DNA of 64,000 bases from a virus. Of the stretch, positions 45,919 through 62,295 are shown piece after piece. The notes under the pieces are model-generated. The model did no database searches and was not told the origin of the DNA. It saw only the letters and a program-made list of their open reading frames with translations. The translations under genes and the position numbers were made by a program. The stretch covers positions 1 to 64,000 of the IMG/VR virus record IMGVR_UViG_3300020455_000006; one strand, 5' to 3'. Positions within the stretch are counted from its first letter, which is position 1, and every line of letters begins with the position of its first letter.

Positions 45919-45924
45919 GTGGTA

Positions 45925-46893
45925 CTATATCATGTCAGTTATTCTACCCGATAAACGAGTGTCTGTCAATCCACGAACTGTCACATATTCACTTGCCATA
46001 TCTTCAAGCATCTTACGTTTATGCTCTGTTACTGGATTATTCGTGTCAAAATTAGGGTGTGAGTATTTTTTATCTAGAACTATTTTACAACCAAACTGAC
46101 TATAATCGTCCTCATCAAGGTTGAAGTGGTCGTAAGGTATATTATAGTCTTGTAATGCTTGTTCTATATCTCTTTGCTGTCTAGTAAAATCGTCTAGATG
46201 ATTCCATATTATCTCCTTATCCCTTTTGTATGCGTCTATAATTGTATTGAAAAATACAGGTCTACCCGTTAGTTTCGTATAATTCTTAGATTGCTTTGGT
46301 GGGTCAAACATATTTAATTTACTTATCATACTATCAAGGATATTTACTTTATAAGGTATAAGATTCGTGGTATTTTTGAGAAGTGATATGATTTTTGGTG
46401 TTGTGATATATATTCTTTGATAGTTGACAATACCTAATAGATGATGTGGTCTTATGAGTATCTCTCCATCAAACATATAGTCTAAAGCAAACTCCCATGT
46501 ATTTGGTGCATGATTCAAGAATGGTTCATAATCATCAATATTAGTGAATTGTTTATCTAACCCTCGTCTATCAGAACTGTCTGTGATAATTTTATTTTTA
46601 TAAAATTCTGTGGTTCTATGATCTACAAAATTATATTTTTCCATATAACTATACGATTTCTCTTTCAAAGGGTTTTTTACCCTAGTTGTTCTATATAATA
46701 CTCGAACTAATTTATTTTCATTTCGTGGTTTGTAATAGTGATACCACTCTTGTTTCTTAGGTTCTGGATAAATATATCTATCGAATTTATAGGTATTATT
46801 AGTAAAGAACACATGTTGTCGTTCATTGAACTCAAACATTCTGTTCAAGTGGTCACTACCACTATTTACAGCACCCCAGTAGACAAATTTCAT
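45925..46893 (-). CDS. Hypothetical protein, possibly a divergent sulfotransferase (start likely 46893)
   Basis: MKFVYWGAVNSG; shares the Y.IPY..F.LD..DY motif with 44399-45220. Confidence 0.5.
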   Translation of the reverse strand: MKFVYWGAVNSGSDHLNRMFEFNERQHVFFTNNTYKFDRYIYPEPKKQEWYHYYKPRNENKLVRVLYRTTRVKNPLKEKSYSYMEKYNFVDHRTTEFYKNKIITDSSDRRGLDKQFTNIDDYEPFLNHAPNTWEFALDYMFDGEILIRPHHLLGIVNYQRIYITTPKIISLLKNTTNLIPYKVNILDSMISKLNMFDPPKQSKNYTKLTGRPVFFNTIIDAYKRDKEIIWNHLDDFTRQQRDIEQALQDYNIPYDHFNLDEDDYSQFGCKIVLDKKYSHPNFDTNNPVTEHKRKMLEDMASEYVTVRGLTDTRLSGRITDMI

Positions 46894-46930
46894 AATATTA
46901 TCTATACTACTTCCATATATTAGCACCTTC

Positions 46931-47350
46931 ATGGCGATACCGCACCCACCCAGAGCAGAGAACTATGGAAATCAAGATCTAGACCCTCGTTGGGAGATAG
47001 GAGATTTCAAGGTTGGGGATATAGTTGAGTGCTTTCTTTGTCTCAATGGTACAATGCAACCAAGCAAACCTGACTGTGGTGTCATATCATTTGTATCAGG
47101 TGGGTACATGAGTTTGTGTGTTGGTTGTAATGCAGAGGGTAGAGCAATCAATGTTTGTATCAATCAACTCTATCATATAAGAATACTACAGGAACATGAA
47201 TATACCAAACTGGATACATCACTCCAAAAAGGTTGCCAAACCAAGAAAGCGACCACAGGCATTGAGACAGGCGAGGAAGAGACGCTCGCAGTTTCTCACA
47301 CGCTTGAAAAGAGAATCGAAACTTATCCTCTCGAAGCGAAATCATACTAG
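46931..47350 (+). CDS. Hypothetical protein
   Basis: 139 aa; KOW-like FKVGDIV; Cys-rich. Confidence 0.55.
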   Translation: MAIPHPPRAENYGNQDLDPRWEIGDFKVGDIVECFLCLNGTMQPSKPDCGVISFVSGGYMSLCVGCNAEGRAINVCINQLYHIRILQEHEYTKLDTSLQKGCQTKKATTGIETGEEETLAVSHTLEKRIETYPLEAKSY

Positions 47351-47428
47351 ACAATAATAATATTGGCACATGGGGGTGTACATATAGAATAGTTGTGACT
47401 ATAATGAATAGTATATACACCAAATATA

Positions 47429-49639
47429 ATGCCAGTCAACATTGAAATCAAAGGCAACCTTGCCAAGTTACTAGCAACTGAGAATCTTATCATTGAGCAT
47501 AAGGCAGTTGACACAGCATCATTTGATGTTCAGAGAAGAGTTCTTACTCTTCCACAATGGGATACAGACAGCAACTATATCTATGATATGCTTGTTGCTC
47601 ATGAAGTGGGTCATGCACTACACACACCTAATCGCAACTACAAGTTAGAAGAAAAATACAAAGACATACCACATGATTATGTCAATGTAGTTGAAGATGC
47701 TCGCATTGAGAGATTGATGAAGCAGAGATTTGCAGGGTTGAATAGAGACTTCTATAAAGCATACGAAGAACTACATGCTAACAACTTCTTTGAAGTAGAT
47801 GATGAAGATGTCAATGATCTCAAACTTGTTGATAGAATCAATCTATACTTCAAGATTGGTGCATATCTTTGCATTGACTTCAATGATGAAGAGAATCAAA
47901 TCATCACAGAGATTTCACAGGCAGAGACATTTGACCAAGTTCTTGAAATATCTAAGAAGTTACATCAATTAGGTAAGAAACAAAAGCAAGAAGTAGATGC
48001 ACAACATCAAGTAAACATTGAAGTTGCTCTCAAAGAAATGAAAGAAGATGAGAACGGAGAACTTGCTAATCCACTTACATTTGAACCAACTGATGAGTCA
48101 GATGATGATGCACTTGAGATCGAGGGCAAGGGTAATACACCAGATCAACAAACTGATGAAGATGTTGATGATGAAGAACCAGAGGTAGATACTACCATCA
48201 AGGCAGGGAATCATGGCAACATTGAAGAGTCTGATACACAGAGATCATTTGACAAAAATGCTCATGAACTCGCACAGTCACAAGATCGGAGAGAAATTAC
48301 TTATGTAACTATTCCTAAGATTGACATTGACTCAGTAACTATAAAGTTTGAGACAGTCAGAGATTCACTCAAGAAACATTTTGCATCTAAGAGTTTTGAT
48401 ACATCATCTGAACATCAATATTCAGTAACTTCATGGAACAACTCACTTGATGAAATGTTCAAGAGATACAATGACTATAAGAAGTCAGCAAGAAAAGATG
48501 TCAACAACCTAGTCAAAGAGTTTGAAATGAAGAAGTCAGCAGACTCTTATTCTAGATCAGCAACAGCAAGGACTGGTATGCTTGATATGAACAAGTTACA
48601 CACATACAAGTATAACGAGGACATATTCAAGAAAGTCACAGTCATACCAGAGGGCAAGAATCATGGTCTAGTATTTCTACTTGACTGGTCTGGTTCTATG
48701 CACAACCAATTAGAGGATACTCTAAAGCAGTTGTTCAATCTTATATGGTTCTGTCGTAAGGTTCAGATACCATTCGAGGTATATGCTTTCACAAATGACT
48801 CATGGATACTTGACCCTAGAGTATCAGAGGACGCTACGAGATCATACGCATGGCAGAGAACTCTACCCAAGCATCACACACCCGAACTCAATGAGTTGGT
48901 AATCCCTGAGACTTTCCGTATGGTAAACATACTATCAAGTCAGCAACGTGGTAGAGACTTAGATGAAATGATGAAGTTATTATACATGCAGACTCTAGCA
49001 ATGTGTAATCACTCATACTGCAACTATGACCATAAGTTTGCACTATCAGGTACACCACTCAATGAAGCGATTATCTCACTTGGTCAGATAATCAAACAGT
49101 TCATCAAGTCAAGTGGTATTCAGAAGTGTCATACAGTTATATTGACTGATGGAGACGCATTTCATTCTGAATATGCTTACAAATTTTATGAAGATGGAAA
49201 TTCAGTCAATAGATCAGTTTACTCTGGTGGGTTCATGATAAGACATGGTTCTAGAACATATAATGGTGGTAATGGTCATTCTGACTTTACTTGCAGTCTA
49301 ATCAAGGCAGTAAAAGATGATCTACCTAATACATCATTCTTAGGTATCAGAATCCTTGAGAGAGACTACAGACATTTCTACATGCACTATGCTAGAAACT
49401 CTTACATGGACTTCGAGGAAATGAAAGCACAGAACCGCAAAGAGGGTATGATACATTTCAAATCCAATTCATTTGACAAGTGGTATGGTATCTCAGGTAA
49501 TAAATTACAAGATGATGCTGAACTAGAGGTCAATCAAGGTGCTGACAAGAGATCAATCTCTACCGCTTTCAAGAAGATGAACAGAGGTAAGAAAACTAAC
49601 AAGGTCATGGTAAAACAATTCATAGACCAGATAGCATAG
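47429..49639 (+). CDS. Metallopeptidase-like/vWA (CobT-like) protein
   Basis: HEVGH, NVVEDARIE, acidic linker, MIDAS DWSGS...GTP...TDG. Confidence 0.85.
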   Translation: MPVNIEIKGNLAKLLATENLIIEHKAVDTASFDVQRRVLTLPQWDTDSNYIYDMLVAHEVGHALHTPNRNYKLEEKYKDIPHDYVNVVEDARIERLMKQRFAGLNRDFYKAYEELHANNFFEVDDEDVNDLKLVDRINLYFKIGAYLCIDFNDEENQIITEISQAETFDQVLEISKKLHQLGKKQKQEVDAQHQVNIEVALKEMKEDENGELANPLTFEPTDESDDDALEIEGKGNTPDQQTDEDVDDEEPEVDTTIKAGNHGNIEESDTQRSFDKNAHELAQSQDRREITYVTIPKIDIDSVTIKFETVRDSLKKHFASKSFDTSSEHQYSVTSWNNSLDEMFKRYNDYKKSARKDVNNLVKEFEMKKSADSYSRSATARTGMLDMNKLHTYKYNEDIFKKVTVIPEGKNHGLVFLLDWSGSMHNQLEDTLKQLFNLIWFCRKVQIPFEVYAFTNDSWILDPRVSEDATRSYAWQRTLPKHHTPELNELVIPETFRMVNILSSQQRGRDLDEMMKLLYMQTLAMCNHSYCNYDHKFALSGTPLNEAIISLGQIIKQFIKSSGIQKCHTVILTDGDAFHSEYAYKFYEDGNSVNRSVYSGGFMIRHGSRTYNGGNGHSDFTCSLIKAVKDDLPNTSFLGIRILERDYRHFYMHYARNSYMDFEEMKAQNRKEGMIHFKSNSFDKWYGISGNKLQDDAELEVNQGADKRSISTAFKKMNRGKKTNKVMVKQFIDQIA

Positions 49640-49713
49640 TGTCACATGGGTTGGTTGCCAACCCATTTTACTTATGGTACGATAAGTACGAAGCAAACAT
49701 TCATTCAAAATTC

Positions 49714-50889
49714 ATGCCTACTACCTACGATTCAGATTTCCATATCAACAACATAGTTGAGAAGTATGGTAAGAAACTAGATGCTGACATGGTAAAGGCA
49801 TATTGTGATGACAACCCAATAGGGTATCAGACCATCACAAAGTTTCTAAACAGATACAAAACCAAGCGAGGACATTGGAATGTAACTGTCAAGCAAGCGA
49901 AAGCACAACTTGAGCAGTCATTTCAACAACCCTCTGCACCAATACAACAACCAGTTGTAGTTCCCACTCAATCCAAAGTTGGTCTTGCTAAGACTAGCAT
50001 TGATGTTGAGAACCTTGTACCAGAGAAAGACCCAACATTTGTAAAGTTTGGTCAGTTCCCTGATCTCAAGAAAGTGATCGCTTCCAAACTATTCTACCCT
50101 GTATTCATTACAGGTATGTCTGGTAATGGTAAGACATTCGGTGTTGAGCAAGCAGCAGCAGAGACAGGCAGAGAACTAATTAGAGTCAACATCACAGTCG
50201 AGACTGATGAAGATGACCTTATTGGTGGATTCAGACTTGTCAATGGCGAGACTGTATGGCACAACGGAGCAGTCATTGAAGCATTAGAGCGTGGTGCTAT
50301 CTTATTACTTGATGAGATTGATCTAGCATCTAATAAGATCATGTGTCTACAGTCCATACTAGAGGGCAAGGGTGTGTTTCTCAAGAAGATTGGAGAGTAC
50401 ATCAAACCCAAGCATGGATTCAACATCATTGCTACTGCTAACACAAAGGGTAAGGGTTCTGATGATGGTAGATTCATTGGCACAAATGTACTCAATGAAG
50501 CGTTCCTTGAGAGATTCCCAGTTACCTTTGAGCAAGAGTATCCTACTGTCAAGACAGAGATCAAGATACTCACATCACTATCTGAGCAACTCAAGATACC
50601 TATGATAGGAGAGCATGAGAAGTTCATCAAGCACCTTTGTGACTGGTCTGACATAGTTCGCAGAACATTCAAGGAGGGTGGTGTTGATGAGATTATCTCA
50701 ACTCGTAGACTAACTCACATCATTAGAGCATACTCTATCTTTGGCAACAAAGAGAAAGCAGTACAAATCTGTCTCAATAGATTTGATGAAGAAACCAAAG
50801 AGTCATTCTGGTCACTCTATACTAAGTTAGATGAAACTGTGGGTGTACAACCTGATACAGAAGACCCTAACAGTCCATACGCTACATAA
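49714..50889 (+). CDS. cobS: CobS/MoxR-like AAA+ ATPase (start moved to 49714)
   Basis: GMSGNGKT, LLLDEID, ATANTKG, NEAFLERF; the longer call overlaps its promoter. Confidence 0.88.
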   Translation: MPTTYDSDFHINNIVEKYGKKLDADMVKAYCDDNPIGYQTITKFLNRYKTKRGHWNVTVKQAKAQLEQSFQQPSAPIQQPVVVPTQSKVGLAKTSIDVENLVPEKDPTFVKFGQFPDLKKVIASKLFYPVFITGMSGNGKTFGVEQAAAETGRELIRVNITVETDEDDLIGGFRLVNGETVWHNGAVIEALERGAILLLDEIDLASNKIMCLQSILEGKGVFLKKIGEYIKPKHGFNIIATANTKGKGSDDGRFIGTNVLNEAFLERFPVTFEQEYPTVKTEIKILTSLSEQLKIPMIGEHEKFIKHLCDWSDIVRRTFKEGGVDEIISTRRLTHIIRAYSIFGNKEKAVQICLNRFDEETKESFWSLYTKLDETVGVQPDTEDPNSPYAT

Positions 50890-50892
50890 TGT

Positions 50893-51015
50893 ATGGACGA
50901 AATAGAGTTTATACCAGAGGAGGGTTTGGATATTCAATTCACACCCTCTGACAACCTAAAAGAGGATATGTCAGAGGAGGAGTGGACTGCATACCTAGCA
51001 ATCTTTCAAACCTAA
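50893..51015 (+). CDS. Small acidic protein (40 aa)
   Basis: MDEIEFIPEEGLDIQFTPSDNLKEDMSEEEWTAYLAIFQT. Confidence 0.6.
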   Translation: MDEIEFIPEEGLDIQFTPSDNLKEDMSEEEWTAYLAIFQT

Positions 51016-51032
51016 CTTACAATATTCTAACC

Positions 51033-51064
51033 AACCTATCGGTCATAGTACTGGTAGGTTTTTT
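51033..51064 (+). terminator. Terminator
   Basis: AACCTATCGGT-catagt-ACTGGTAGGTT (with G-U pairs) plus T-run. Confidence 0.6.
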
Positions 51065-51192
51065 ATTGTTTATGTAAAGTTTTGTTACTATCTCAACACA
51101 TACTATAGACAGGTTTGGAACTACCCTGTACAATAAAGTACATGAGGGTTGATTGATTGCTTCCCTCTAAATGTCCTTTATTATTCTTGATA

Positions 51193-51414
51193 ATGAGTTA
51201 CAAAATCAACAATTCAAGTGCTATCGCAAACGTAGATTTCTCAGACAACAACAAGGTGTCTGTTCAGTTCACAACTAGCGACACACCTTATGAGTTTCTT
51301 GCAAAAGATTCTTCTCTTGTAAGAAATGGTCTTGAGAGTGCTATCAACAAAGGCGATTCAGTTGGTCGTTTGATTGCTTCTTATAGAGCAAGTGGCGAAT
51401 TGACAGCAGTATAA
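51193..51414 (+). CDS. KTSC-domain-like small protein
   Basis: SSAIANVDF...VSVQF....YEF...SVGR pattern. Confidence 0.6.
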   Translation: MSYKINNSSAIANVDFSDNNKVSVQFTTSDTPYEFLAKDSSLVRNGLESAINKGDSVGRLIASYRASGELTAV

Positions 51415-51436
51415 TCATACTGCCTATGATATTCAT

Positions 51437-51463
51437 ACCCACACTCTATGTGTGGGTTTTTTT
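51437..51463 (+). terminator. Terminator
   Basis: ACCCACAC-tctat-GTGTGGGT plus T-run. Confidence 0.85.
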
Positions 51464-51471
51464 ATTCTAAC

Positions 51472-51759
51472 ATGAGTTACATGACTAACAACACAACCAT
51501 TGAGTTGATGAGAGAACTGGACGAGTCAGTTCAAAGAGTCAAAGAACTCAACAGAATCATCAACAAACTTCACACCGCTATTATATGTGATAGCGAAGAA
51601 CTAGAGGATTTGGTAGAATTGACAAGAACCTATGCAAACTATAGCATCAGAGACTTGGAGAATTCCTACCTACACACTTTCAATACTGTTATCAAAAATG
51701 ATAAAGTAGTTCCGTTTCCTATCAAGAAACAATTTGTACATTTAGATGAGGACGCATAA
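51472..51759 (+). CDS. Hypothetical protein
   Basis: Helical ORF after the terminator. Confidence 0.65.
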   Translation: MSYMTNNTTIELMRELDESVQRVKELNRIINKLHTAIICDSEELEDLVELTRTYANYSIRDLENSYLHTFNTVIKNDKVVPFPIKKQFVHLDEDA

Positions 51760-51760
51760 C

Positions 51761-52024
51761 ATGACATTTGCATTTTTGAGTGGATTAGCAGAACTATGGG
51801 AAGCAGTTGATTGGCAAGATGTTCCCATATTCTTTGTATGTCTATTTGGTTTATACTGGGGAAAGAATTGGATTGACCTTAGATTTGCTCGTAAGAAAGC
51901 ACAGATAGTACATAGAGTCAAGATAGTGGGAGATTCCCATATCAACATAGACCATGCACACATAGATGAGATAGAGCATAATCATGTTGAAGGAGACGTA
52001 AACACTCACAATAAGACTTGGTAA
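51761..52024 (+). CDS. Membrane protein with His-rich tail
   Basis: TM segment followed by HINIDHAHIDEIEHNH. Confidence 0.65.
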   Translation: MTFAFLSGLAELWEAVDWQDVPIFFVCLFGLYWGKNWIDLRFARKKAQIVHRVKIVGDSHINIDHAHIDEIEHNHVEGDVNTHNKTW

Positions 52025-52025
52025 A

Positions 52026-52667
52026 ATGACATCAATCACTACGCTAGAACATACTACACTAGGTAATATCTCAGCAAGTGATTTTACTCTATCGCAATTA
52101 TCTCTTCTCTTATTTGAGAAGGGATTATTGCTTGGTTTTGATAATGTATTTGACAAAACTAAGATAAGAGAGATCATGGTTGCTGAGAAACTAGGACATA
52201 ATGTACACAGTACAGTTATAGCAGGGAAGGGAACTATCAACTATGGTAGTGACGCTACAGACCCCACAACAGGCAAGAAGGCAGAGTATAAGTCACAGAC
52301 ACTAAGGTCTAAGGACTTGAGAAATTTATTTCAAGAGGTTAGATACCCTAAGAGTGGTAAGAAATTTGCACCACTTACAATTACTGGTGTTTATAATGGT
52401 TTCAATAGTAACTATGAATCAGCATCAGTTGAGTATGAAAAGGTTGACCATTATTTCTCACTCTTCTGGAGAGAGAACCCAGTAGCAATATATCAGATTG
52501 ACACATACTATGTGATGAACATGCTTATAGACAATTATAGTAAGTGGCATAATAATGGTAGGCAAGGAACATCTAATTGCAATTCAGTCAAAATTCAATT
52601 AGAATCACAGTCAGACTATTATACAGTAAAGTACATTGATGAGAGATTTTTCAATGAAAAGAAATAG
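52026..52667 (+). CDS. PvuII-like PD-(D/E)XK restriction endonuclease
   Basis: GSDATDPTTGKKAEYKS resembles the PvuII GNDAVDNAGQEYELKS motif (recalled); also AIY...KW; adjacent MTases. Confidence 0.65.
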   Translation: MTSITTLEHTTLGNISASDFTLSQLSLLLFEKGLLLGFDNVFDKTKIREIMVAEKLGHNVHSTVIAGKGTINYGSDATDPTTGKKAEYKSQTLRSKDLRNLFQEVRYPKSGKKFAPLTITGVYNGFNSNYESASVEYEKVDHYFSLFWRENPVAIYQIDTYYVMNMLIDNYSKWHNNGRQGTSNCNSVKIQLESQSDYYTVKYIDERFFNEKK

Positions 52668-54377: not shown

Positions 54378-54399
54378 AGCATACCTACAAAACAGGTCA

Positions 54400-54743: not shown

Positions 54744-54883
54744 GAGAATTTCTAGTCTCAGCACTTGTTGAAGGGTACAGAATTGAGGACTACATCATGG
54801 CAGCAAGTGAGCATCATGCTATAAGATTACTTGAGTCAAAGTATCCACAGGCAAGAAACACTTATGCTATCCTACAAGACTGA
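54740..54883 (+). CDS. Small protein (47 aa)
   Basis: MREFLVSALVEGYRIEDYIMAASEHHAIRLLESKYPQA...; GAGG RBS. Confidence 0.7.
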   Translation: MREFLVSALVEGYRIEDYIMAASEHHAIRLLESKYPQARNTYAILQD

Positions 54884-55023
54884 TGGAATACAAATTTACC
54901 ACACCCTACGAGAGGTTTCAAGAGTGGTTGAATCAATGCCCAGTTGAGATAATCAACTATCAAGACTTTACAGACCAGTTCGAGGTCACGTTTAGCGTAC
55001 CACTAGAAGAGATAGACAGTTGA
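54883..55023 (+). CDS. Small protein (46 aa)
   Basis: MEYKFTTPYERFQEWLNQCPV...; TGATG coupling. Confidence 0.7.
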   Translation: MEYKFTTPYERFQEWLNQCPVEIINYQDFTDQFEVTFSVPLEEIDS

Positions 55024-55092
55024 GAGACTGTCTATTTTTTTGTCTATTCATCAATAGTATAGACTACAATTAGATCAGTTACACAATTCATT

Positions 55093-55224
55093 ATGACTTA
55101 TGTTATCTACACAGACCCAATACAGAGGACTACAGACTATGATGAAGCATGTTTTATCGCTGACGATCATTTCAATGCTACTGGGTTTATCGTTGCAGTA
55201 GAGGAGGACGAGAGCAATGCTTAG
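55093..55224 (+). CDS. Small acidic protein (43 aa)
   Basis: MTYVIYTDPIQRTTDYDEACFIADD...; follows a palindrome promoter. Confidence 0.7.
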   Translation: MTYVIYTDPIQRTTDYDEACFIADDHFNATGFIVAVEEDESNA

Positions 55225-55432
55225 ACAGTATGTTATTACTGGTACAAAGACCTTTACTTATTATAAGACAGTCCACGCTGAAGATATTACTGAAGCACAT
55301 TTGCTGGCACATGAACCGAGTGAAGATTCTGATGATGACTGGACTTGTTACTTTGATTATGACTATGATGAACCCACAGAGGACAATGGTCTTATGGTAG
55401 TCAAACACATTGAAGATGAGGGAGAGATCTAA
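55217..55432 (+). CDS. Small acidic protein
   Basis: GAGGAGG RBS; V.AE...EA..LA motif. Confidence 0.7.
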   Translation: MLRQYVITGTKTFTYYKTVHAEDITEAHLLAHEPSEDSDDDWTCYFDYDYDEPTEDNGLMVVKHIEDEGEI

Positions 55433-55638
55433 TGCCAATTTATCATGTCAAATGCTCAGAGACAGTAAATTTTACTGTCGCAATCGAAGCAGACACAGAA
55501 AATGATGCAAGGGAACTTGCACACGCAGACATCAATTCTCATGAAGTTATTGCAGAGTCAACAACTGACTGGGATATTGACGAAATCATTTTAGAATCAC
55601 AGGAGTGGTACAACAAACAGAGGAATTTATCATGTTAG
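55432..55638 (+). CDS. Small acidic protein, similar to the previous ORF
   Basis: IEADTENDARELA. Confidence 0.7.
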   Translation: MPIYHVKCSETVNFTVAIEADTENDARELAHADINSHEVIAESTTDWDIDEIILESQEWYNKQRNLSC

Positions 55639-55883
55639 ATGAAGTAAAAAAAACAATTACTTACACTCTCACATTTGATGAAGTGCAAGCATTTGAAGAT
55701 CATGTCACATGGCACATACTTGAACATGATATACCTGTAAGTGATAACTTACAGTCATTCATTGACAAGGTATTATACGATAGTATGCCAAGACGTACTA
55801 AAGAGTGGTATGCCATTCAAGAATTTGAGGAAGCGGAAAAAAATCTATCACCGCCTTATGAACACATACCAGACAGATACTAA
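55632..55883 (+). CDS. Small hypothetical protein
   Basis: GAGG RBS before ATG 55632. Confidence 0.7.
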   Translation: MLDEVKKTITYTLTFDEVQAFEDHVTWHILEHDIPVSDNLQSFIDKVLYDSMPRRTKEWYAIQEFEEAEKNLSPPYEHIPDRY

Positions 55884-55951
55884 ACTGTCACAAGAACCAT
55901 AGTTATCTTACTATAGATGGTTCATAATAGAGTATAACAACAAGAGGTCAC

Positions 55952-56149
55952 ATGCCTAGATCAAACAGCACACCAGTAGAATGGAATCGTTCACTTGATG
56001 TTACTGAAGCAGAAGAGTCAGTACTCGTTGAAATGGTAGGATTCTTCAATGACATGGGTTGGATAAATGATGAGTCACAAGATGCCTACGACACACTTGT
56101 AGACAAAATTTGTGAACCAAGTCCATTTGATTACACACCACAGTCATGA
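55952..56149 (+). CDS. Small acidic protein
   Basis: GAGG RBS; follows a palindrome promoter. Confidence 0.75.
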   Translation: MPRSNSTPVEWNRSLDVTEAEESVLVEMVGFFNDMGWINDESQDAYDTLVDKICEPSPFDYTPQS

Positions 56150-56310
56150 AGAAATTAGTCAACAAATACACTAGGGCAGGGTATAGAGGTAAATCTATAA
56201 CTTGCCCAGAATGTGATACTGACGCTATTGTGTATCACTTTGCATGGTCAGCACTCGGTTGTCAATCGTGTGGTGCTATGGTAGAAAAACATCAATGGAG
56301 TATAACATGA
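56146..56310 (+). CDS. Zinc-ribbon protein (54 aa)
   Basis: CPEC...VYHFAWSALGCQSC; ATGA overlaps on both sides. Confidence 0.75.
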   Translation: MKKLVNKYTRAGYRGKSITCPECDTDAIVYHFAWSALGCQSCGAMVEKHQWSIT

Positions 56311-56642
56311 GAACTTGGATTTTCAAAGACTACCTAAAAATGGAACATGGTAAGTTTTTACCATTACAGACTATTGAGTCAGAGGAGTTCGGTAGTCACT
56401 TCTTTATTGACATAGCATTTGAATTTATCACAGCACCCAGTCTAGTAGAAGGTGGGTATGATGAGAGTCAACTTGATTATGTCAGTAATTGGACTGAGTG
56501 GGAAGATGTCAACATGAATAAACTGTTTGACATTTATCGTGACCTTACATGGAAGGAAAACAACGATAACAGAGAGAAAGCAAGCGAAGAGTTTGCAGCA
56601 TACATTGATGACGTTGAAAAGGGAAGAATAGAATACCTATGA
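56307..56642 (+). CDS. Hypothetical protein (start moved to 56307)
   Basis: GGAG RBS and ATGA overlap. Confidence 0.7.
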   Translation: MRTWIFKDYLKMEHGKFLPLQTIESEEFGSHFFIDIAFEFITAPSLVEGGYDESQLDYVSNWTEWEDVNMNKLFDIYRDLTWKENNDNREKASEEFAAYIDDVEKGRIEYL

Positions 56643-56851
56643 CTATCTACACGACTGGACGTATTATCGGGTCATTCTTGATAGTCATAGCATATTTTAT
56701 TGTACTACATGTATCGGCAACAGTAGGAGCAGCAATGCACCTGATAGCAAACATCATAAGCATACCATTCTTTATAAGAACTAAGGGATATGATGTGGTT
56801 ATCATGCTAACATTTTTGATGGTAATATCACTTGGTAAGATATTATCATGA
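56639..56851 (+). CDS. Small multi-TM membrane protein
   Basis: Three hydrophobic segments. Confidence 0.75.
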   Translation: MTIYTTGRIIGSFLIVIAYFIVLHVSATVGAAMHLIANIISIPFFIRTKGYDVVIMLTFLMVISLGKILS

Positions 56852-56929
56852 CAATATTATTACTGTCACAACCTGTCTTGATTATCTTAGGATAACAGGC
56901 AATAATAGAGTATAACAAACGAGGTTATT

Positions 56930-57127
56930 ATGAGTCTATCTCAACAAATCAAAATTCAAGAGTTTGACAAGTACATCTTACAAGGTGGCGATCAATCTCT
57001 ATCAAATATAGAGGACTTATGTGTTTATGGTTTTGTAATGATGGACACCGAACCTGATGAAGAAACATTCAATGATGTAGTCATTGATGTGATTCGTAAA
57101 CTCAAGTTAGCATTACATTTACAATAG
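56930..57127 (+). CDS. Small hypothetical protein
   Basis: GAGG RBS; follows a palindrome promoter. Confidence 0.75.
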   Translation: MSLSQQIKIQEFDKYILQGGDQSLSNIEDLCVYGFVMMDTEPDEETFNDVVIDVIRKLKLALHLQ

Positions 57128-57136
57128 GAGTTCGTT

Positions 57137-57334
57137 ATGTCAACATTACATCATGACTCAATTTTTCAATCTTGCAATGAGTCAGTAGATATTCGTCCTT
57201 GTTTCAATGGTGTTGGTTCGTGGGAAGTATTTGATGATACTGGTACAGTTCACGATACTTACGACACACTAGATGAAGCAACAAAAGCAAGAGAAGATCT
57301 CGTCCTTTACCTATGGGAGTGCTTACTACAATGA
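57137..57334 (+). CDS. Small hypothetical protein
   Basis: AGGAG RBS; MSTLHH start. Confidence 0.75.
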   Translation: MSTLHHDSIFQSCNESVDIRPCFNGVGSWEVFDDTGTVHDTYDTLDEATKAREDLVLYLWECLLQ

Positions 57335-57570
57335 AACCTGATGAATTCGTCTTGAATCAAGAGCAGTTCAACACACTCAAAGAGATATACGTTGAACGAC
57401 TCGTTGATAATATGGAAACCAAAGACCTTGTAACCTACGTCACAAATGACATAGGAGAGTGGGTGGACAAACTGACCTATGCTGAAGCAATGAATGAATT
57501 TTCTGAGTATTGGGAAGAGTATTTCACAGACACTATTCAAGAAGTTTTGGAGATACACCCCAATGATTAG
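57331..57570 (+). CDS. Small acidic protein
   Basis: YVERLVDNMETKDL; ATGA overlap. Confidence 0.75.
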   Translation: MKPDEFVLNQEQFNTLKEIYVERLVDNMETKDLVTYVTNDIGEWVDKLTYAEAMNEFSEYWEEYFTDTIQEVLEIHPND

Positions 57571-57742
57571 TACTTGCACATATTTTTCCATTGCTGATAA
57601 GGTCAGAGATACAGACAGTCTATCTGAGTGGTGGGTACTGACTCTATATCCCAACTTGAACCAAGTTGTTTGTATTACTACTGATGAATCTCGTAATACT
57701 CGTAAATCGTTCAAACCGCATCAATTAGAGATCATACCATAA
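57563..57742 (+). CDS. Small hypothetical protein
   Basis: GGAG RBS before ATG 57563. Confidence 0.6.
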   Translation: MISTCTYFSIADKVRDTDSLSEWWVLTLYPNLNQVVCITTDESRNTRKSFKPHQLEIIP

Positions 57743-57859
57743 CTAGCAGATTTTTAGTCTAGAGGGGCGAAAGCGGGTCAATTTTATTAGTGTCACAAGG
57801 TCTATACCATTTGTCCAAAGAATAGGCAATAATGAAGTATAACTTTCTAAGGAGAGAAA

Positions 57860-58105
57860 ATGATTTTTTCAATGCAATTCAAAAGAGCGTTCTGGTTGAC
57901 TGAGGAAGATGCAATGGTATCATGCCCAGTATTACCTGATGGTACTATACAAGACTGGAACTGGGAGTATATTACAGGCGAGAAGGGCAAACCCTACTTC
58001 GAGACTGACCACAATTTCAACTGTCTTGTCAGAATATTCAATGCTCTCAAAGAGAATAGACAAGAAGGGTTGTATGAAATCAAGATCAAAGAGGTGGTGG
58101 CATAA
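57860..58105 (+). CDS. Small hypothetical protein
   Basis: AAGGAG RBS; follows a palindrome promoter. Confidence 0.75.
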   Translation: MIFSMQFKRAFWLTEEDAMVSCPVLPDGTIQDWNWEYITGEKGKPYFETDHNFNCLVRIFNALKENRQEGLYEIKIKEVVA

Positions 58106-58311
58106 TGGCATGGTGTTGTAAATGCGGTAATCAGAATGATGATAAAACCGCCCCTGATTACATAGCAGATAATGACCTATATTTCTACTGGGATAGTCCA
58201 CTTGAAGAGGATTACGACTGGCGGACTCACAACCCAGATATTGACTGCCTATGTGAGATATGTTTCGACATTCTAAATCATGATGGTAAGATAATCTGGA
58301 AACCAGTTTGA
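58105..58311 (+). CDS. Small Cys-rich (zinc-binding-like) protein
   Basis: CCKC...CLCEIC. Confidence 0.7.
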   Translation: MAWCCKCGNQNDDKTAPDYIADNDLYFYWDSPLEEDYDWRTHNPDIDCLCEICFDILNHDGKIIWKPV

Positions 58312-58382
58312 ATACTGTCACAAGATCTATTTCATTCGTCTACATTTTCGTCTATTATTAGTTCAACAAGCAAACATTCGTC

Positions 58383-58595
58383 ATGTACTCAAAACCACTT
58401 TATTCGTTATCAGAATCCTACAGACTGATAGGTAGGTACAATAAGAAATATAGTTCAGTTGAAATTGCTGATCTAGATCAAAGAGATCAGGGGTGGACTG
58501 ACTATGACCCTGTTCATGGAGCATCAGATAATGTACTCACTCAAGAATGTGATTCATTATACGATAGACTATTATTACAGGAGTTAGCATCATGA
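58383..58595 (+). CDS. Small hypothetical protein
   Basis: Follows a palindrome promoter. Confidence 0.7.
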   Translation: MYSKPLYSLSESYRLIGRYNKKYSSVEIADLDQRDQGWTDYDPVHGASDNVLTQECDSLYDRLLLQELAS

Positions 58596-58804
58596 GCAAC
58601 TCTTATGAACTCAGATGGAATGAAATTACTGAAAAGAATTTCTATTTCTATTTCTTCTTTGGTATGGCAGAGGGATTGACTCTTAGGGAGTGCATACATG
58701 GCAAGGGTTCTCAGACACCCGCCCAAGTTCAACCAGTTTGGTATAAGGGAACATATAATGAATATGCTAACAGTATAAAAACTTATATCCAAGAAATGCT
58801 GTAA
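58592..58804 (+). CDS. Small hypothetical protein
   Basis: AGGAG RBS and ATGA overlap. Confidence 0.7.
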   Translation: MSNSYELRWNEITEKNFYFYFFFGMAEGLTLRECIHGKGSQTPAQVQPVWYKGTYNEYANSIKTYIQEML

Positions 58805-58893
58805 CAAAACCACATATAAAATTGGCACAAGACACACCCTAAAATCAAACTTTCGTGATTATAATGAAGGAGTCCAAACAAATAGTAACAACT

Positions 58894-59160
58894 ATGCCAA
58901 CTAAGTCTATCGCTAAAGTAACAACAACTAAAGCAAAGACTAGGACTAGAGTAACAACAACAAAACTCAAAAGACCTGCTAAGAGTGTACTTACTCTAAA
59001 TCACTACGTTAGAGACTATCAGTCAAGAGTAAAAATTCACAATTATGAGTTTCAACAATTCTTGAATGATTGTAAAAAAGGTATTCAATTAGTAAGACAA
59101 TCTTCAGAGAATGTTTATAACTATGCTCTACAATCTTACAAAACACACTTCAATGTGTGA
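58894..59160 (+). CDS. Small basic Thr/Lys-rich protein (start moved to 58894)
   Basis: The longer call overlaps the -10 box. Confidence 0.7.
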   Translation: MPTKSIAKVTTTKAKTRTRVTTTKLKRPAKSVLTLNHYVRDYQSRVKIHNYEFQQFLNDCKKGIQLVRQSSENVYNYALQSYKTHFNV

Positions 59161-59178
59161 CAGTCAATGAATTGACAC

Positions 59179-59202
59179 AAGCACCCTAGAGGTGCTTTTT
59201 TC
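59179..59202 (+). terminator. Terminator
   Basis: AAGCACC-ctaga-GGTGCTT plus T-run. Confidence 0.8.
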
Positions 59203-59299
59203 TTATCGTAAGAAAACCAGTTGAGATAGTGTCACAAGTACCCCTTCACAAATCCCATTATTCAGACTATACTATTAGTATAGCAATCAATCAAACATC

Positions 59300-59671
59300 A
59301 TGAGAAAAATCGAAAGACAAATGAACTTCGCTCTATCCAATAAGGGCAATTTCTCAAGTTCAAACACTTCTGTTTCTTACCACCCTTCAGAGAATCTTTC
59401 GGAAGTGAGACTACATGGCAATCTAATTGCATGGTTAGACCACACTAAGCAAGTATTAGCACTTAGTTCGGCAGGGTGGCATACTAACACCACTAAGTCT
59501 AGACTAAATGCTTTACTCTTTGAGTTCAATACTGGCATTAGTGTATTTCAGAAAAACTGGGATTGGTTCGTCTCTGACTTCTCAGGTAAGAAAAAAGTTG
59601 ACTTTTATGATGGAATTTTAGTCACTAAGGAGGGATTTTCGTCAATTCACTCACACCCTGCTGTAGCATAA
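59300..59671 (+). CDS. Conserved phage hypothetical protein
   Basis: MRKIERQM...V.LHGN.IA...GW.T.TTKSRLNAL. Confidence 0.8.
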   Translation: MRKIERQMNFALSNKGNFSSSNTSVSYHPSENLSEVRLHGNLIAWLDHTKQVLALSSAGWHTNTTKSRLNALLFEFNTGISVFQKNWDWFVSDFSGKKKVDFYDGILVTKEGFSSIHSHPAVA

Positions 59672-59829
59672 GTTACAGCAGTTCGTCCATTTGATACGCA
59701 ATTACTTCGTTATGCAACTATTTTCGTCTAAAGTTCGTCTAAAATCCCTTGATATGACTTCGTTTTCGTTATCAAGAGATATATACAAAAGTTTACATGA
59801 AATGAACAGTTATGATGCTACAATTATGG

Positions 59830-61078
59830 GTATCAACTGTTACACGCAAAAGAATAAAAATGTTTCAAAAAACATTTATTGACTCTTTATAGATGTTACA
59901 AAGGTGTGTATCATTTGTTCTCTTAGCGAGCATGGCATAAAAGTCAAGCAAATACTAGGAGACCCACACAGAATCCCCGATACAGGCACTTGTAACATAT
60001 TATACATGGGACTTGTGCCAATATATGAACTGGCACAGCAAGACACAATGATACCACAGCGAGTATCATTTGATACACGAACAGATGCTACAATATGCTG
60101 TAACATTTGATACAGGCACTATTGTAACATATTATACCTGGTACTGTACCAGATTTACATGACCTTGTAAAGTACCAATGATACATTCTGACGTATCAAA
60201 TGTTACATGGTATAATATTATACATGAACATGTTCAGGTATCATTTGATACAACTTCATGTTATTACAAATAATTATAAGTTGGCAGGGGGAGTGGCGAA
60301 TATTTTCTAAAGTCCTACCCCAGACTTGCTTACCCTAATTTTAACAAATTTCTCAGGGCAGTACAAGTACATTTGATACATGTACATGTTCATGTAACAT
60401 ATGATACATCTGGTTTAGATTCTACTTCCATTCTAGCAAAGATTTTTTTTATATGCAATGTACATTTTATACAATGTAAAATATGATACATGGGCGGTTT
60501 CCCGTACCTTTTACAGGTGGCAATCTCTGGAAGGACATGTTAAGATTAGATTGTTCGACAGCAAATCTTTTATTATGTTCCCTTCAACAATCCTTGAGAC
60601 AATCAAAGCAAACACACCTGCACCTGCTAGATCATTCAACATCAACACTAATAGCAGAGACCTTGACTTTCAGGTATCAACTAAGCAAATCCTCCAGATA
60701 CTTAGAAAGAATCCTCAAGGTATGACACTTACAGAAATTGCACAAGCAGTTGACCCTAACTGGCAAACAATGAACTGTAAGAGAATGTTCAAACAGGCGA
60801 TTGATCCTCTATGCCTTCGTGATGATGTTCGTTTCACTACGTCCAAATCTGGCAAGCGTGTAAAGTACTTCCCAACTCGTGTTTCTAAGCGTTGGTTAGT
60901 CAAAGAACTTTTCAACACATTTGCACAGGCGAAAAATTCATAATCGCTAGACTCTGGCAATGCCAATAAGTCCAGAGTCGAACACAAACCAGTTGACAGA
61001 GTGTCAAGTGATCTTGTTACCTCACACTATATCATTTGTTACTTGACACCTTGTCAACACCCCTGTATCATTTGATAC
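59830..61078. repeat. Array of 11 perfect GTA-N8-TAC palindromes (consensus GTAWCAWWTGWTAC)
   Basis: Copies start at 59830, 59992, 60063, 60100, 60124, 60193, 60210, 60238, 60394, 60476 and 61065. Confidence 0.9.
60575..60943 (+). CDS. Winged helix-turn-helix DNA-binding protein (start moved to 60575)
   Basis: ILQILRKNPQGMTLTEIAQAV...FKQAIDPL..RDDVRFTTSKSGKRVKYF; extended -10 TGtTAAGAT near 60538. Confidence 0.7.
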   Translation: MFPSTILETIKANTPAPARSFNINTNSRDLDFQVSTKQILQILRKNPQGMTLTEIAQAVDPNWQTMNCKRMFKQAIDPLCLRDDVRFTTSKSGKRVKYFPTRVSKRWLVKELFNTFAQAKNS

Positions 61079-61081
61079 ACG

Positions 61082-62040: not shown

Positions 62041-62100
62041 AACATTTGAAAAATAATAGGGTTCCTCTTATACACAACGTCCCATCAATATAAGAGGAAA

Positions 62101-62289: not shown

Positions 62290-62295
62290 TCTATT

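What the first reader, a model, noticed from the sequence alone, without database searches (positions are those of the whole stretch)
46318..60340. Apparent complete absence of TTAA and RGCY across ~14 kb of the early region
Seen (by-eye scan): no TTAA between the copies at 46314 and 60341, although on the order of 100 would be expected in AT-rich DNA. TCAA, CTAA and TTGA abound, and AATT is common. I also found no AGCT, AGCC, GGCT or GGCC between 44022 and 63846; AGC and GGC are always followed by A or G there. Both words occur elsewhere in the window (TTAA near 1133, 3005, 5081; AGCT near 2099, 36943). Established: TTAA is an MseI-type site and RGCY a CviJI-type site, and site avoidance is a known anti-restriction strategy. 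Inference: the early block, which also holds the endonuclease and MTases, is under much stronger purging than the rest. It may be exposed first or before protection, which would be unexpected for a circularly permuted T4-like genome.
Basis: partly seen in the sequence, partly recalled or inferred. Interest (0 to 1): 0.72.

Follow-up and report, generated by a model that had tools for sequence, protein, structure and literature searches.

The report
Cut-site-free early block in cyanophage
A marine virus of cyanobacteria has thinned out, across its genome, the short DNA words that DNA-cutting enzymes recognise, and has erased them completely from one 14-20 kb block of small genes; related viruses share the pattern, which suggests this block is the part of the genome that cannot afford a single cut.

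Summary
There is no TTAA between 46314 and 60341, and no RGCY between 44022 and 63846. Synonymous-codon shuffles expect 63-77 TTAA and 85-91 RGCY there.

CCGG, CGCG, GCGC and nine 6-bp palindromes are absent. TTAA and RGCY stand at 0.20-0.25 of expectation. The block is therefore a second, total layer of avoidance.

Five of five relatives lack RGCY for at least 9.5 kb there. Cultured P-SSM4, Syn9 and S-ShM2 have 12-19 kb RGCY-free gaps over their small-ORF regions. Gene size, composition, foreign origin and assembly error do not explain it.

TTAA loss tracks two phage-borne nuclease families. One, with a PvuII-like fold, lies in the block at 52026-52667. S-ShM2 carries the other family, has no homologue of the block's first methylase, and has 0 TTAA in 179,563 bp.

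Best reading (0.4): stronger selection on the pre-replicative module. Early timing and entry order are untested. I found no paper on this. Earlier notes of this scan report the same block on other cyanophage genomes.

The parts
46318..60340 (.). TTAA-free stretch (14,023 bp)
   Evidence: Searches give the positions. expects 63-77 sites and finds 0.
44023..63845 (.). RGCY-free stretch (19,823 bp); also free of CCGG, CGCG and GCGC, like the whole contig
   Evidence: expects 85-91 sites and finds 0.
46931..60943 (+). Plus-strand cluster of CobT, CobS, the nuclease-methylase cassette and about 25 small ORFs: the core of the block, inferred to be a pre-replicative (early-type) unit
   Evidence: ORF lists. 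TTAA+RGCY: 1 observed against 130.9 expected. All 23 of 23 genes of <=135 aa have zero sites, against 14 of 35 outside.
43542..46932 (-). Left shoulder: four divergently oriented genes, including a cytidylyltransferase and a phosphoheptose-isomerase-like ORF. No RGCY except one at 44022; two TTAA
   Evidence: O/E 0.09 (3 vs 32.6).
60943..64000 (-). Right shoulder: minus-strand genes with intermediate depletion. It continues past the window end to about 65,700 on the contig
   Evidence: O/E 0.15 (6 vs 41.2) for contig 60943-65700.
47429..49639 (+). CobT-like protein, 736 aa (annotated 'peptidase' in cyanophage records)
   Evidence: phrog_459, E 3.9e-234. 464 phage records match by tblastn.
49639..50889 (+). 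CobS-like AAA+ ATPase
   Evidence: PF07728, E 5e-19. phrog_249, E 5e-127.
52026..52667 (+). 213-aa PD-(D/E)XK nuclease with a PvuII-like fold (family A1); candidate TTAA-linked nuclease
   Evidence: No Pfam or NCBIfam hit. AF2 model pLDDT 89.3. Twelve of the first 13 listed Foldseek PDB matches are PvuII entries; best E 6.2e-7, TM 0.63-0.65 normalised to the target. D76, E87 and K89 are invariant in 25 sequences. TTAA O/E has a median of 0.24 in 24 loci that carry the family.
52636..53421 (+). Beta-class DNA methyltransferase 1; its start overlaps the nuclease ORF
   Evidence: PF01555, E 6e-52. Adenine-MTase models in NCBIfam, below their cut-offs. Nearest PDB sequences are M.MboIIA, M.RsrI and CcrM.
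53418..54377 (+). Beta-class DNA methyltransferase 2; 76-80% aa identity to P-HM2 and P-SSM4 genes
   Evidence: PF01555, E 7e-60..
54334..59238 (+). Six plus-strand copies of TGKCACAAG, each about 30 nt upstream of a -10-like hexamer and upstream of a small ORF (54334, 55886, 57791, 58316, 58823, 59230); one more on the minus strand at 60020
   Evidence: Seven of the 12 exact matches in the 122.7-kb contig fall in 54.3-60.0 kb. None of the 6 TATAAATA late-promoter words lies between 40631 and 67389.
59300..59671 (+). Kyanoviridae Gp96-family gene near the distal edge; its Syn9 homologue ends Syn9's RGCY-free gap
   Evidence: PF23790, E 1.4e-35. The Syn9 homologue lies at 53112-53426 and the gap ends at 53475.
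59830..61083 (.). Array of GTA-N8-TAC dyads (NtcA-box-like) at the distal edge of the TTAA-free stretch, around a weakly HTH-like ORF at 60458-60943
   Evidence: Families D1, D2, D4, D8 and D10. HTH hits are below the Pfam cut-offs. Also noted by other first readers.

Best explanation
The window is the first 64 kb of a 122.7-kb fragment of an uncultured marine T4-like cyanophage. Its DNA carries a two-layer purge of short palindromic words of the kind that Type II endonucleases recognise.

Layer 1 covers the whole contig. CCGG, CGCG, GCGC and nine 6-bp palindromes are absent, and TTAA and RGCY are 4-5-fold depleted. RGCY and CCGG avoidance is shared with the other marine T4-like cyanophages examined; the agent is unknown. 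TTAA avoidance is most likely self-avoidance of a nuclease the phage itself carries: the PvuII-fold ORF at 52026-52667, with a methylase beside it that would protect the remaining sites.

Layer 2 is the finding. In the 14-20 kb module of CobT, CobS, the nuclease-methylase cassette and about 25 small ORFs, every such word is removed.

I read this as position-specific, stronger selection. The module must be transcribed intact from the single incoming genome copy while nucleases (host, rival phage or the phage's own) are active. That is before methylation, copy number and T4-type recombination or ligation repair can buffer cuts elsewhere.

Shown: the purge, its codon-level nature, its location, its conservation and the link between TTAA and the nuclease. 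Inferred: that the module is early, that cuts elsewhere are tolerated, and which enzymes act.
For: - Only palindromic words are depleted.
- The block has 0 sites against 63-91 expected under synonymous shuffles. TTAA+RGCY O/E is 0.008 in the block, 0.09 and 0.15 in the shoulders, and 0.25 outside.
- Small genes outside the block are not purged (O/E 0.36, 34 vs 95.3). All 23 of 23 small genes inside have no site. Small ORFs at about 57.3-59.2 kb, and several others in the block, found no match in the ten comparison genomes, yet are also site-free.
- Words that are only mildly avoided genome-wide are avoided more in the block. TGCA is 0.49 vs 0.75 here; GTAC is 0.09 vs 0.27 in Syn9 and 0.27 vs 0.60 in P-HM2.
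- Conservation, RGCY-free stretches: G001 16.0 kb, G002 10.3, G003 17.5, G004 18.4, G005 9.5 kb (5 of 5; all but G004 are cut by a contig end). In G001, G003 and G004 the TTAA gap is 16.4-18.4 kb at the same place, and the same stretch holds no CCGG, which occurs elsewhere in those contigs.
- Largest RGCY gaps elsewhere: P-SSM4 18,166 bp, S-ShM2 19,356, Syn9 11,962, AG-345-D19 at least 8,897, P-HM2 9,650. Median gaps are 185-400 bp. P ranges from 2.6e-9 to 1.8e-4.
- The P-SSM4 gap runs from PSSM4_037 to the start of the baseplate genes. It holds an annotated restriction endonuclease and two MTases.
- S-PM2 has no long gap, but its ORFanage region is at 0.14 against 0.35 for the rest.
- The block has its own promoter-like motif and no late-promoter word.
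- TTAA O/E is 0.13-0.29 in the four nuclease-bearing contigs and 0.00 in S-ShM2 (0 vs 586). It is 0.86-1.05 in Syn9, S-PM2, P-SSM4, P-HM2 and AG-345-D19, in which tblastn found no match to the nuclease tested.
- In loci carrying family A1, 17 of 24 have TTAA O/E below 0.5. For family A2 it is 25 of 35. In control CobT loci it is 1 of 55.
- Precedent for selection against restriction sites at sub-genomic scale: T5/BF23 (PMC10644984, passages) and T7-like Murciavirus (PMC12455610, abstract and discussion).
Against: - Early expression of the block is not shown for this phage or, from what I could read, for the cultured ones.
- In P-HM2 the RGCY-free stretch covers gp46, CobT, CobS, gp45, gp44 and dam (replication genes). 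Its small-ORF region is not special, at about 0.32 against 0.37.
- S-PM2 shows only a weak version.
- The edges of the gaps do not coincide exactly with transcription-unit edges. The TTAA edge at 46314 lies inside a minus-strand ORF. TTAA at 60341 and 60540 lies inside the plus-strand unit.
- If the nuclease is the phage's own and methylase 1 is its partner, incoming DNA should already be methylated. It is then unclear why this block needs more protection than the rest.
- That cuts outside the block are survivable is my inference from T4 biology, not a result.
- The sigma-70 scan is only modestly above shuffles (100 vs 78.6+-9.6).
Confidence: 0.4

Rival explanations
1. First-entering DNA. Packaging in these cyanophages is not fully random, so the block sits near the end that leaves the capsid first. 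It meets nucleases before the rest, as with T5 first-step-transfer DNA or the T7-type leading region.
For: - The pattern is the one documented for T5/BF23 and Murciavirus.
- Puxty et al. 2015 (PMC4503421, passage read) report 2-3-fold read density immediately downstream of the S-PM2 ORFanage region. They read it as terminal redundancy next to a packaging start.
- Here, the contigs over about 59.3-60.4, -61.2 or -62.1 kb (their ends differ by run) have 1.5-1.9 times the depth of their neighbours in 4 of 4 runs laid (table 8). At most 3 of these are independent.
- All five relatives' contigs end in the block or within about 150 bp of its edge.
Against: - T4-type genomes are taken to be circularly permuted. 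P-SSM2 and P-SSM4 assembled as closed circles (PMC1079782, passage).
- PMC12455610 states that leading-region avoidance should not matter for headful phages.
- Contig depth is a mean per contig and may reflect sharing among strains.
- No raw reads were available, and one search lists no place where molecules begin or end.
- This contig runs through both edges of the block.
Confidence: 0.2
2. Linkage or gene-pool history. The block is the neighbourhood that travels with the nuclease-methylase cassette, or circulates only among phages that carry such cassettes. It is therefore 'born' site-free. The rest of the genome is still being purged under methylase protection, or keeps receiving sites by recombination with unpurged phages.
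For: - The cassette is mobile. Two unrelated nuclease families occupy the same slot upstream of the same methylase in G000 and G004.
- Methylase 2 is the only part of 46000-60500 with megablast matches to cultured phages, at 77-78% nt. Its 80% aa identity to P-SSM4 exceeds every other gene compared, which reach at most 76%.
- S-ShM2 shows that a nuclease-bearing phage without a homologue of methylase 1 can be TTAA-free genome-wide.
- Block genes have homologues inside the P-SSM4 block.
Against: - The block is not a compositional outlier. Its dinucleotide distance is 42-48 within a contig range of 20-74, and its GC is 0.371-0.375.
- Identity to relatives is 37-87% in the block and 25-89% in the flanks, so the ranges overlap widely and nothing points to a recent import.
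- The edges are syntenic between G000 and G004 although their nucleases differ.
- The same block is free of five different words at once, and RGCY-free blocks occur in phages where no matching nuclease was found.
- Neutral regain of sites after methylase gain would be uniform.
Confidence: 0.2
3. Host restriction only. Host MseI-type and CviJI-type systems select against TTAA and RGCY, and the phage's own nuclease plays no part.
For: - Palindromic-word avoidance is the classic signature of Type II restriction (Rusinov et al. 2018, PMC6286503, passages).
- The sets of absent 6-mers differ between phage lineages, as expected from differing enzyme repertoires.
Against: - TTAA depletion follows carriage of the nuclease families across unlike phage backgrounds, including loci that are not RGCY-depleted (L156-L168, L222).
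- It is absent from cultured cyanophages that lack them.
- On its own it gives no reason for a block.
Confidence: 0.08
4. No biology: chance, codon usage, base composition, small-gene bias or an assembly or base-calling artefact.
For: The block has many small ORFs. It uses GCT/GCC less than the rest: 59 codons in the 30 genes inside against 781 in the 115 outside.
Against: - Per-gene synonymous shuffles still expect 63 TTAA and 69 RGCY in 46318-60340.
- Max-gap P values are 1e-7 to 1e-9.
- Small genes elsewhere are at O/E 0.36.
- GC and dinucleotide signature are ordinary.
- Contigs from other runs agree.
- The pattern recurs in finished genomes of cultured phages.
Confidence: 0.01

Closest known systems
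First-step-transfer (pre-early) DNA of T5, BF23 and other Tequintavirus phages
   Same: One sub-genomic segment carrying the first-needed genes must be free of restriction sites, while the rest of the genome keeps sites and is still not restricted (PMC10644984, abstract and passages).
   Different: In T5 the segment is the terminal repeat that enters first in a two-step injection. Here the phage is T4-like and neither its termini nor its entry order is known. The rest of its genome is also 4-5-fold purged. The block is internal to the contig.
Leading (first-injected) region of T7-like Murciavirus and Type I restriction
   Same: The location of a motif, not its count, decides sensitivity. Selection is concentrated on a variable early region that encodes anti-defence genes (PMC12455610, abstract and discussion).
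   Different: That case involves Type I motifs and transcription-driven ordered entry. The paper expects no such effect in headful packagers, which is what T4-like cyanophages are thought to be.
Genome-wide restriction-site avoidance in virulent dsDNA phages
   Same: Palindromic Type II words are under-represented relative to composition (PMC6286503, passages).
   Different: That survey treats genomes as wholes. In a term search of its text, 'early' and 'cyano' do not occur. Here avoidance has a sharp internal structure and part of it tracks a phage-borne nuclease.
Type IIP restriction-modification systems of the PvuII kind (R.PvuII with a beta-class methylase)
   Same: ORF 52026-52667 has the PvuII fold and a D...ExK triad. 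It overlaps a beta-class methylase gene.
   Different: No sequence-level family match was found. The word that tracks the family is TTAA, not CAGCTG, which occurs 7 times in the contig. There are two methylases. The carrier is a lytic phage. No activity has been tested.
Virus-encoded restriction enzymes of chloroviruses (such as CviJI, RG^CY) used to degrade host DNA
   Same: A lytic virus carries Type II-like nucleases and methylases. RGCY is the CviJI word.
   Different: This comparison is recalled, not drawn from any call. Chloroviruses are said to rely on methylation, whereas these phages also remove the words. No CviJI-like gene was sought or found here.
Hyperplastic small-gene regions with promoter-early stem-loops (PeSLs) in T4-type phages
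   Same: The block is a run of small, fast-turning-over ORFs. Each is preceded by a repeated promoter-like motif, and several terminator-like hairpins are present.
   Different: I saw PeSLs only as cited in a passage of PMC4503421. No report links them to site avoidance.

Membership tests
Restriction-site (Type II word) avoidance | The word is under-represented relative to a null that keeps protein sequence and codon usage | tested here: met
   genome O/E 0.25 for TTAA and 0.20 for RGCY; 0 for CCGG, CGCG and GCGC (expected 69-79, 33-35 and 45-52); 0 in the block.
Restriction-site (Type II word) avoidance | The avoided words are palindromic, and non-palindromic words are not affected | tested here: met
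   the seven lowest 4-mer classes are CCGG, CGCG, GCGC, GGCC, AGCC/GGCT, AGCT and TTAA; mean O/E of non-palindromic words is 1.02 in the block and 1.03 in the rest.
Restriction-site (Type II word) avoidance | An enzyme cutting that word exists in the host or the phage | tested here: inconclusive
   For TTAA, two phage-borne PD-(D/E)XK families co-occur with depletion, but no cleavage assay was done. For RGCY, CCGG, CGCG and GCGC no enzyme was identified. Host genomes were not examined.
Leading or first-step-transfer region (T5/T7 type) | A site-free segment within a genome that keeps sites elsewhere | tested here: met
Leading or first-step-transfer region (T5/T7 type) | The segment lies at the genome end that enters the cell first | not testable with these tools
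   The contig is a fragment (G001, a relative, is rated 70% complete). Only contigs of runs were available, and no starts or ends of molecules were reported.
Leading or first-step-transfer region (T5/T7 type) | The segment encodes functions that protect the rest of the genome | tested here: inconclusive
   Two DNA methylases are present. Seven small ORFs match only PHROG families of unknown function, and three of the ten scanned match none. No known anti-restriction family was found.
T4-type early (pre-replicative) gene region | A cluster of small ORFs on one strand with host-type promoters and no late promoters | tested here: met
   (the ORFs); the repeated motif with a -10-like hexamer, and 0 of 6 TATAAATA words in 41-67 kb. 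The sigma-70 scan is only modestly above shuffles.
T4-type early (pre-replicative) gene region | Transcribed first after infection | not testable with these tools
   Doron et al. 2016 is not held. The P-HM2 cluster table is a supplement, and supplements are closed.
Type II R-M system, PvuII-like | PD-(D/E)XK fold like R.PvuII with a conserved catalytic triad | tested here: met
   (E 6.2e-7, TM 0.63-0.65 normalised to the target). (D76, E87 and K89 invariant).
Type II R-M system, PvuII-like | Sequence membership of the Pfam/NCBIfam PvuII family, and CAGCTG specificity | tested here: not met
   No family hit at E<=0.05 or <=0.01. No PDB sequence hit better than E 0.26. CAGCTG is present 7 times. 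I therefore describe it as 'PvuII-like fold', not as a member.
Type II R-M system, PvuII-like | Adjacent cognate methyltransferase of the same specificity | tested here: inconclusive
   A beta-class MTase gene overlaps the nuclease ORF. Its specificity is unknown.

The most novel reading that the evidence does not exclude
Marine T4-like cyanophages tell their own DNA from host and rival DNA partly by word exclusion. They carry Type II-like nucleases: a TTAA-linked one here, which in S-ShM2 comes without a homologue of this phage's first methylase. They also keep one module, the first-needed host-takeover genes, free of every cuttable word. That would mean one of two things. Either these 'headful' phages have a preferred leading end after all, or a T4-type genome can survive cuts anywhere except in this module. 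In both cases a site desert would let early and anti-defence genes be read off uncultured phage genomes from sequence alone.
Probability: 0.3. Interest if true: 0.85.

Novelty: new variant of a known kind. Interest (0 to 1): 0.7.

Why it matters
Restriction-site avoidance is usually scored per genome. Sub-genomic concentration of that selection is documented only for phages with staged or ordered DNA entry (T5, T7-like). A 2025 paper explicitly expects it not to apply to headful packagers (PMC12455610).

Here a sharp, conserved site desert appears in T4-like cyanophages, which include ecologically important marine viruses. It is also present in cultured model phages (P-SSM4, Syn9, S-ShM2), so it can be tested at the bench.

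It bears on three questions:
- How these phages enter and protect their DNA.
- Why phages of hosts said to have few restriction systems are so heavily purged.
- Whether phage-borne nucleases, rather than host ones, drive that purge.

Tried and rejected
**Explanations tested and rejected**
- Codon usage: rejected by per-gene and genome-pool synonymous shuffles.
- Base composition: GC is flat at 0.35-0.39 across the block.
- Small-gene or low-expression bias: small genes outside the block are at O/E 0.36.
- Foreign origin of the block: the dinucleotide signature is ordinary and identity to relatives overlaps that of the flanks.
- A local 'cis' valley around the nuclease gene: meta-profiles over 13 (A1) and 28 (A2) non-redundant loci are roughly flat at 0.2-0.6 over +-10 kb, with no dip centred on the gene.
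- The PvuII-fold nuclease as the cause of the block: G001, G003 and G004 lack it yet have the block.
- Assembly artefact: contigs from other runs agree.

**Checks that gave nothing usable**
- Population variants. Of the 40 best-supported variants listed, 2 would create a site (50710, 54044). Both lie in clusters of differences on high-depth contigs that look like other phages. Chance would give about 3 of 40, since 7.9% of possible changes create a site. 143 further variants were not shown.
- CobT-centred meta-profile over 10 ordinary cyanophage loci: only a shallow RGCY dip, 0.19-0.39 against 0.5-0.69.
- hhalign of the two nuclease families: no relation (probability 0.14).

**Literature**
- Searches for cyanophage site avoidance found nothing relevant: searches gave 0 papers; two searches gave none on the subject.
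- The review PMC2984593 mentions restriction only as a possible cause of host-range differences.
- The supplementary tables of PMC5082946 and PMC6708340, and the paper of Doron et al. 2016, assign temporal classes to P-HM2 and Syn9 genes. I could not see them, and they bear directly on the 'early' claim.
- My memory that the Syn9 early cluster covers this small-ORF region is recall only.
- The cyanobacterial origin of enzymes such as AvaI, AvrII and AsuII is also recalled.

**Not used:** Complex prediction, the search of protein representatives, the protein-atlas search, Rfam tools.

Full report
**What the window is**

The window is bases 1-64000 of a single 122,669-base virus contig. The genes identify a marine T4-like cyanomyovirus, known only as a fragment:
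- baseplate hub, tail-tube cap and tail fibres;
- CobT-like and CobS proteins and two N6_N4 DNA methyltransferases;
- a Kyanoviridae Gp96-family gene;
- an array of NtcA-box-like dyads.

The nearest deposited record is a single-cell-derived marine virus, at 45% identity for CobT. The only nucleotide-level matches of 46000-60500 to 50,697 phage records are to the methylase genes of Prochlorococcus phages. A relative's 133-kb contig is rated 70% complete.

**The observation**

It holds to the base.
- TTAA occurs at 46314 and next at 60341. RGCY occurs at 44022 and next at 63846.
- On the whole contig these are the largest gaps by far: 14,027 against 3,894 bp, and 19,824 against 6,460 bp. Max-gap probabilities are 3.6e-7 and 2.9e-8.
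- With amino-acid sequences and codon pools held fixed, 63-77 TTAA and 85-91 RGCY are expected in the two stretches. None is seen.
- The avoidance is visible as codon-context choice. In the block no TTA codon (0 of 75) is followed by A. No GCT/GCC codon (0 of 59) follows a purine-ending codon. No TAA stop (0 of 12) follows a T.

The rest of the genome is not normal.
- CCGG, CGCG and GCGC are absent from all 122.7 kb. The codon-aware null expects 69-79, 33-35 and 45-52.
- Nine 6-bp palindromes that contain none of the five avoided words are also absent. They include ACTAGT and TTCGAA, each with a Markov expectation of about 13.
- TTAA and RGCY stand at 0.25 and 0.20 of expectation genome-wide.
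- Only palindromic words are affected.

The finding is therefore a second layer: a genome that avoids these words everywhere, and one block that avoids them absolutely. Per-gene figures for TTAA+RGCY:

| Region | O/E | Observed vs expected |
|---|---|---|
| 46.9-60.9 kb (block) | 0.008 | 1 vs 130.9 |
| 43.5-46.9 kb (left shoulder) | 0.09 | 3 vs 32.6 |
| 60.9-65.7 kb (right shoulder) | 0.15 | 6 vs 41.2 |
| Other regions | 0.18-0.34 | |

**Simple causes excluded**

- Small genes outside the block are at 0.36, and 14 of 35 have no site. Inside, 23 of 23 have none.
- GC content and dinucleotide signature are ordinary.
- Protein identity to relatives overlaps that of the flanks. ORFs with no match in ten comparison genomes are just as clean.
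- Contigs from four metagenome runs, from up to four studies, carry the same sequence.

**Conservation**

I fetched five related IMG/VR contigs through CobT (60-71% identity). All five lack RGCY for 9.5-18.4 kb around CobT/CobS.
- In G001, G003 and G004 the TTAA gap is 16.4-18.4 kb at the same place. The same stretch holds no CCGG, which occurs elsewhere in those genomes. Their flanks reach 6 RGCY per kb.
- The edges are syntenic. The block starts a few kb upstream of CobT and ends at the HTH-like gene.

The pattern extends to cultured cyanophages:

| Phage | Largest RGCY gap |
|---|---|
| P-SSM4 | 18,166 bp |
| S-ShM2 | 19,356 bp |
| Syn9 | 11,962 bp |
| P-HM2 | 9,650 bp |
| AG-345-D19 | at least 8,897 bp |

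Median gaps are 185-400 bp.

- In P-SSM4 the gap is the run of small ORFs from PSSM4_037 to the first baseplate gene. It contains an annotated restriction endonuclease and two methylases.
- In Syn9 the gap ends at the homologue of the block's Gp96-family gene.
- S-PM2 has no long gap, but its ORFanage region is at 0.14 against 0.35.
- P-HM2 is the exception in content. Its gap covers gp46, CobT, CobS, gp45, gp44 and dam.
- Words that are mildly avoided genome-wide are avoided more in the blocks.
- All four cultured genomes first examined have 0-1 CCGG.

**The nuclease and TTAA**

ORF 52026-52667 has no family hit. It folds with high confidence (pLDDT 89.3). Twelve of its first 13 listed PDB matches are PvuII entries, and its D..ExK triad is invariant in 25 homologues. 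It overlaps methylase 1.

It has no homologue in the phage collection or in G001-G005. G004 instead has, in the same slot, an unrelated 183-aa ORF. That ORF folds like PD-(D/E)XK nucleases: I-Ssp6803I, EcoRV and PvuII, with E 7e-4 to 1e-2.

Figures below are:

| Loci | Median TTAA O/E | Loci below 0.5 |
|---|---|---|
| Family A1 | 0.24 | 17 of 24 |
| Family A2 | 0.11 | 25 of 35 |
| CobT loci of ordinary cyanophages | 0.87 | 1 of 55 |

Eight of the 35 A2 loci have no TTAA at all. The depleted loci include backgrounds that do not avoid RGCY.

Whole records agree. TTAA O/E is 0.13-0.29 in G000, G001, G003 and G004. It is 0.86-1.05 in Syn9, S-PM2, P-SSM4, P-HM2 and AG-345-D19. It is 0 of about 586 in cultured S-ShM2, which has an A2 homologue and no homologue of methylase 1.

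I conclude, at about 0.6, that TTAA is the word of these phage-borne nucleases. Where a methylase accompanies the nuclease, as here, sites are tolerated outside the block.

**Why a block?**

A dip centred on the nuclease gene is not seen in the meta-profiles, and RGCY-free blocks exist without these nucleases. The block therefore reflects a general vulnerability of this DNA to cutting.

- Best reading (0.4): the module must be expressed from the single incoming copy while nucleases are active. Cuts elsewhere are buffered later by methylation, copy number and T4-type recombination or ligation. The last step is inference.
- First-entry rival (0.2): it gains from the S-PM2 report of raised read density just downstream of its ORFanage. 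It also gains from a 1.5-1.9-fold contig-depth step at about 59.3-62.1 kb in the four runs laid. No termini could be mapped.
- Linkage rival (0.2): it gains from the evident mobility of the cassette. It does not explain syntenic edges or the simultaneous loss of five words.

**Known and new**

Genome-wide site avoidance is known (PMC6286503). Sub-genomic avoidance is known for T5-like and T7-like phages (PMC10644984, PMC12455610). The latter paper expects none in headful phages.

My searches found no paper on site avoidance in marine cyanomyoviruses. Earlier notes of this scan describe the same kind of block, and own-nuclease avoidance, on other cyanophage genomes. I reached the block results before reading them, and I tested the nuclease lead myself.

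I class this as a new variant of a known kind.

Noticed in passing
whole contig (window 1-64000 and beyond): CCGG, CGCG and GCGC are absent from all 122,669 bases. So are nine 6-bp palindromes that contain none of the five avoided words: ACTAGT, CACGTG, CCTAGG, CGATCG, CTCGAG, GACGTC, GCTAGC, GTCGAC and TTCGAA. CYCGRG is absent too, but it contains CTCGAG and CCGG-bearing words. The set of absent 6-mers differs between cyanophage lineages.
   Followed up: partly
window 59830-61083: A dense array of GTA-N8-TAC dyads (NtcA-box-like) lies around a weakly HTH-like ORF, exactly at the distal edge of the TTAA-free stretch. Other first readers noted it as well.
   Followed up: partly
window about 59300-62133: The contigs over this stretch have 1.5-1.9 times the mean depth of their neighbours in all four metagenome runs laid (for example 29.2 against 16.5-19.4, and 21.9 against 13.4-14.5). 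This could be terminal redundancy or sharing among strains (table 8).
   Followed up: no
window 54334-60020: A repeated promoter-like element lies upstream of small ORFs: CCAG, about 10 nt, TGKCACAAG, about 30 nt, then a -10-like hexamer. Seven of the 12 exact core matches in the contig lie here.
   Followed up: partly
L096:6914-7465 (G004), same slot as window 52026-52667: A relative carries an unrelated 183-aa PD-(D/E)XK-fold ORF in place of the PvuII-fold nuclease, upstream of the same methylase. This looks like a swap of nuclease families within one cassette.
   Followed up: yes
S-ShM2 record NC_015281 (L228-L236): A cultured Synechococcus phage has no TTAA at all in 179,563 bp (about 586-590 expected) and one CCGG. 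It carries a homologue of the G004-type nuclease (SShM2_059) and no homologue of methylase 1.
   Followed up: yes
Syn9 record NC_008296 (L099-L106): Besides CCGG (1 site) and RGCY, Syn9 is strongly depleted in GAAC/GTTC (O/E 0.20) and GTAC (0.26). GTAC is lower still inside its RGCY-free block, at 0.09.
   Followed up: no
blocks of six genomes (G000, G001, Syn9, P-SSM4, P-HM2, AG-345-D19): ATAT is lower inside every block (0.62-0.80) than in the rest of the same genome (0.90-1.05). No explanation is offered.
   Followed up: no
window 53418-54377: Methylase 2 is 80% identical in protein to the P-SSM4 gene and 76% to the P-HM2 gene. That is higher than any other gene compared with P-SSM4 (at most 76%), which suggests exchange of this gene between distant cyanophage lineages.
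   Followed up: partly
window 50001-60000: Nearly the same sequence (0.86-0.97 of sampled words) is held by 13 marine metagenome runs filed from 2014 to 2024. The 20 rows that hold at least part of it come from 8 studies. This phage population is widespread and stable.
   Followed up: partly
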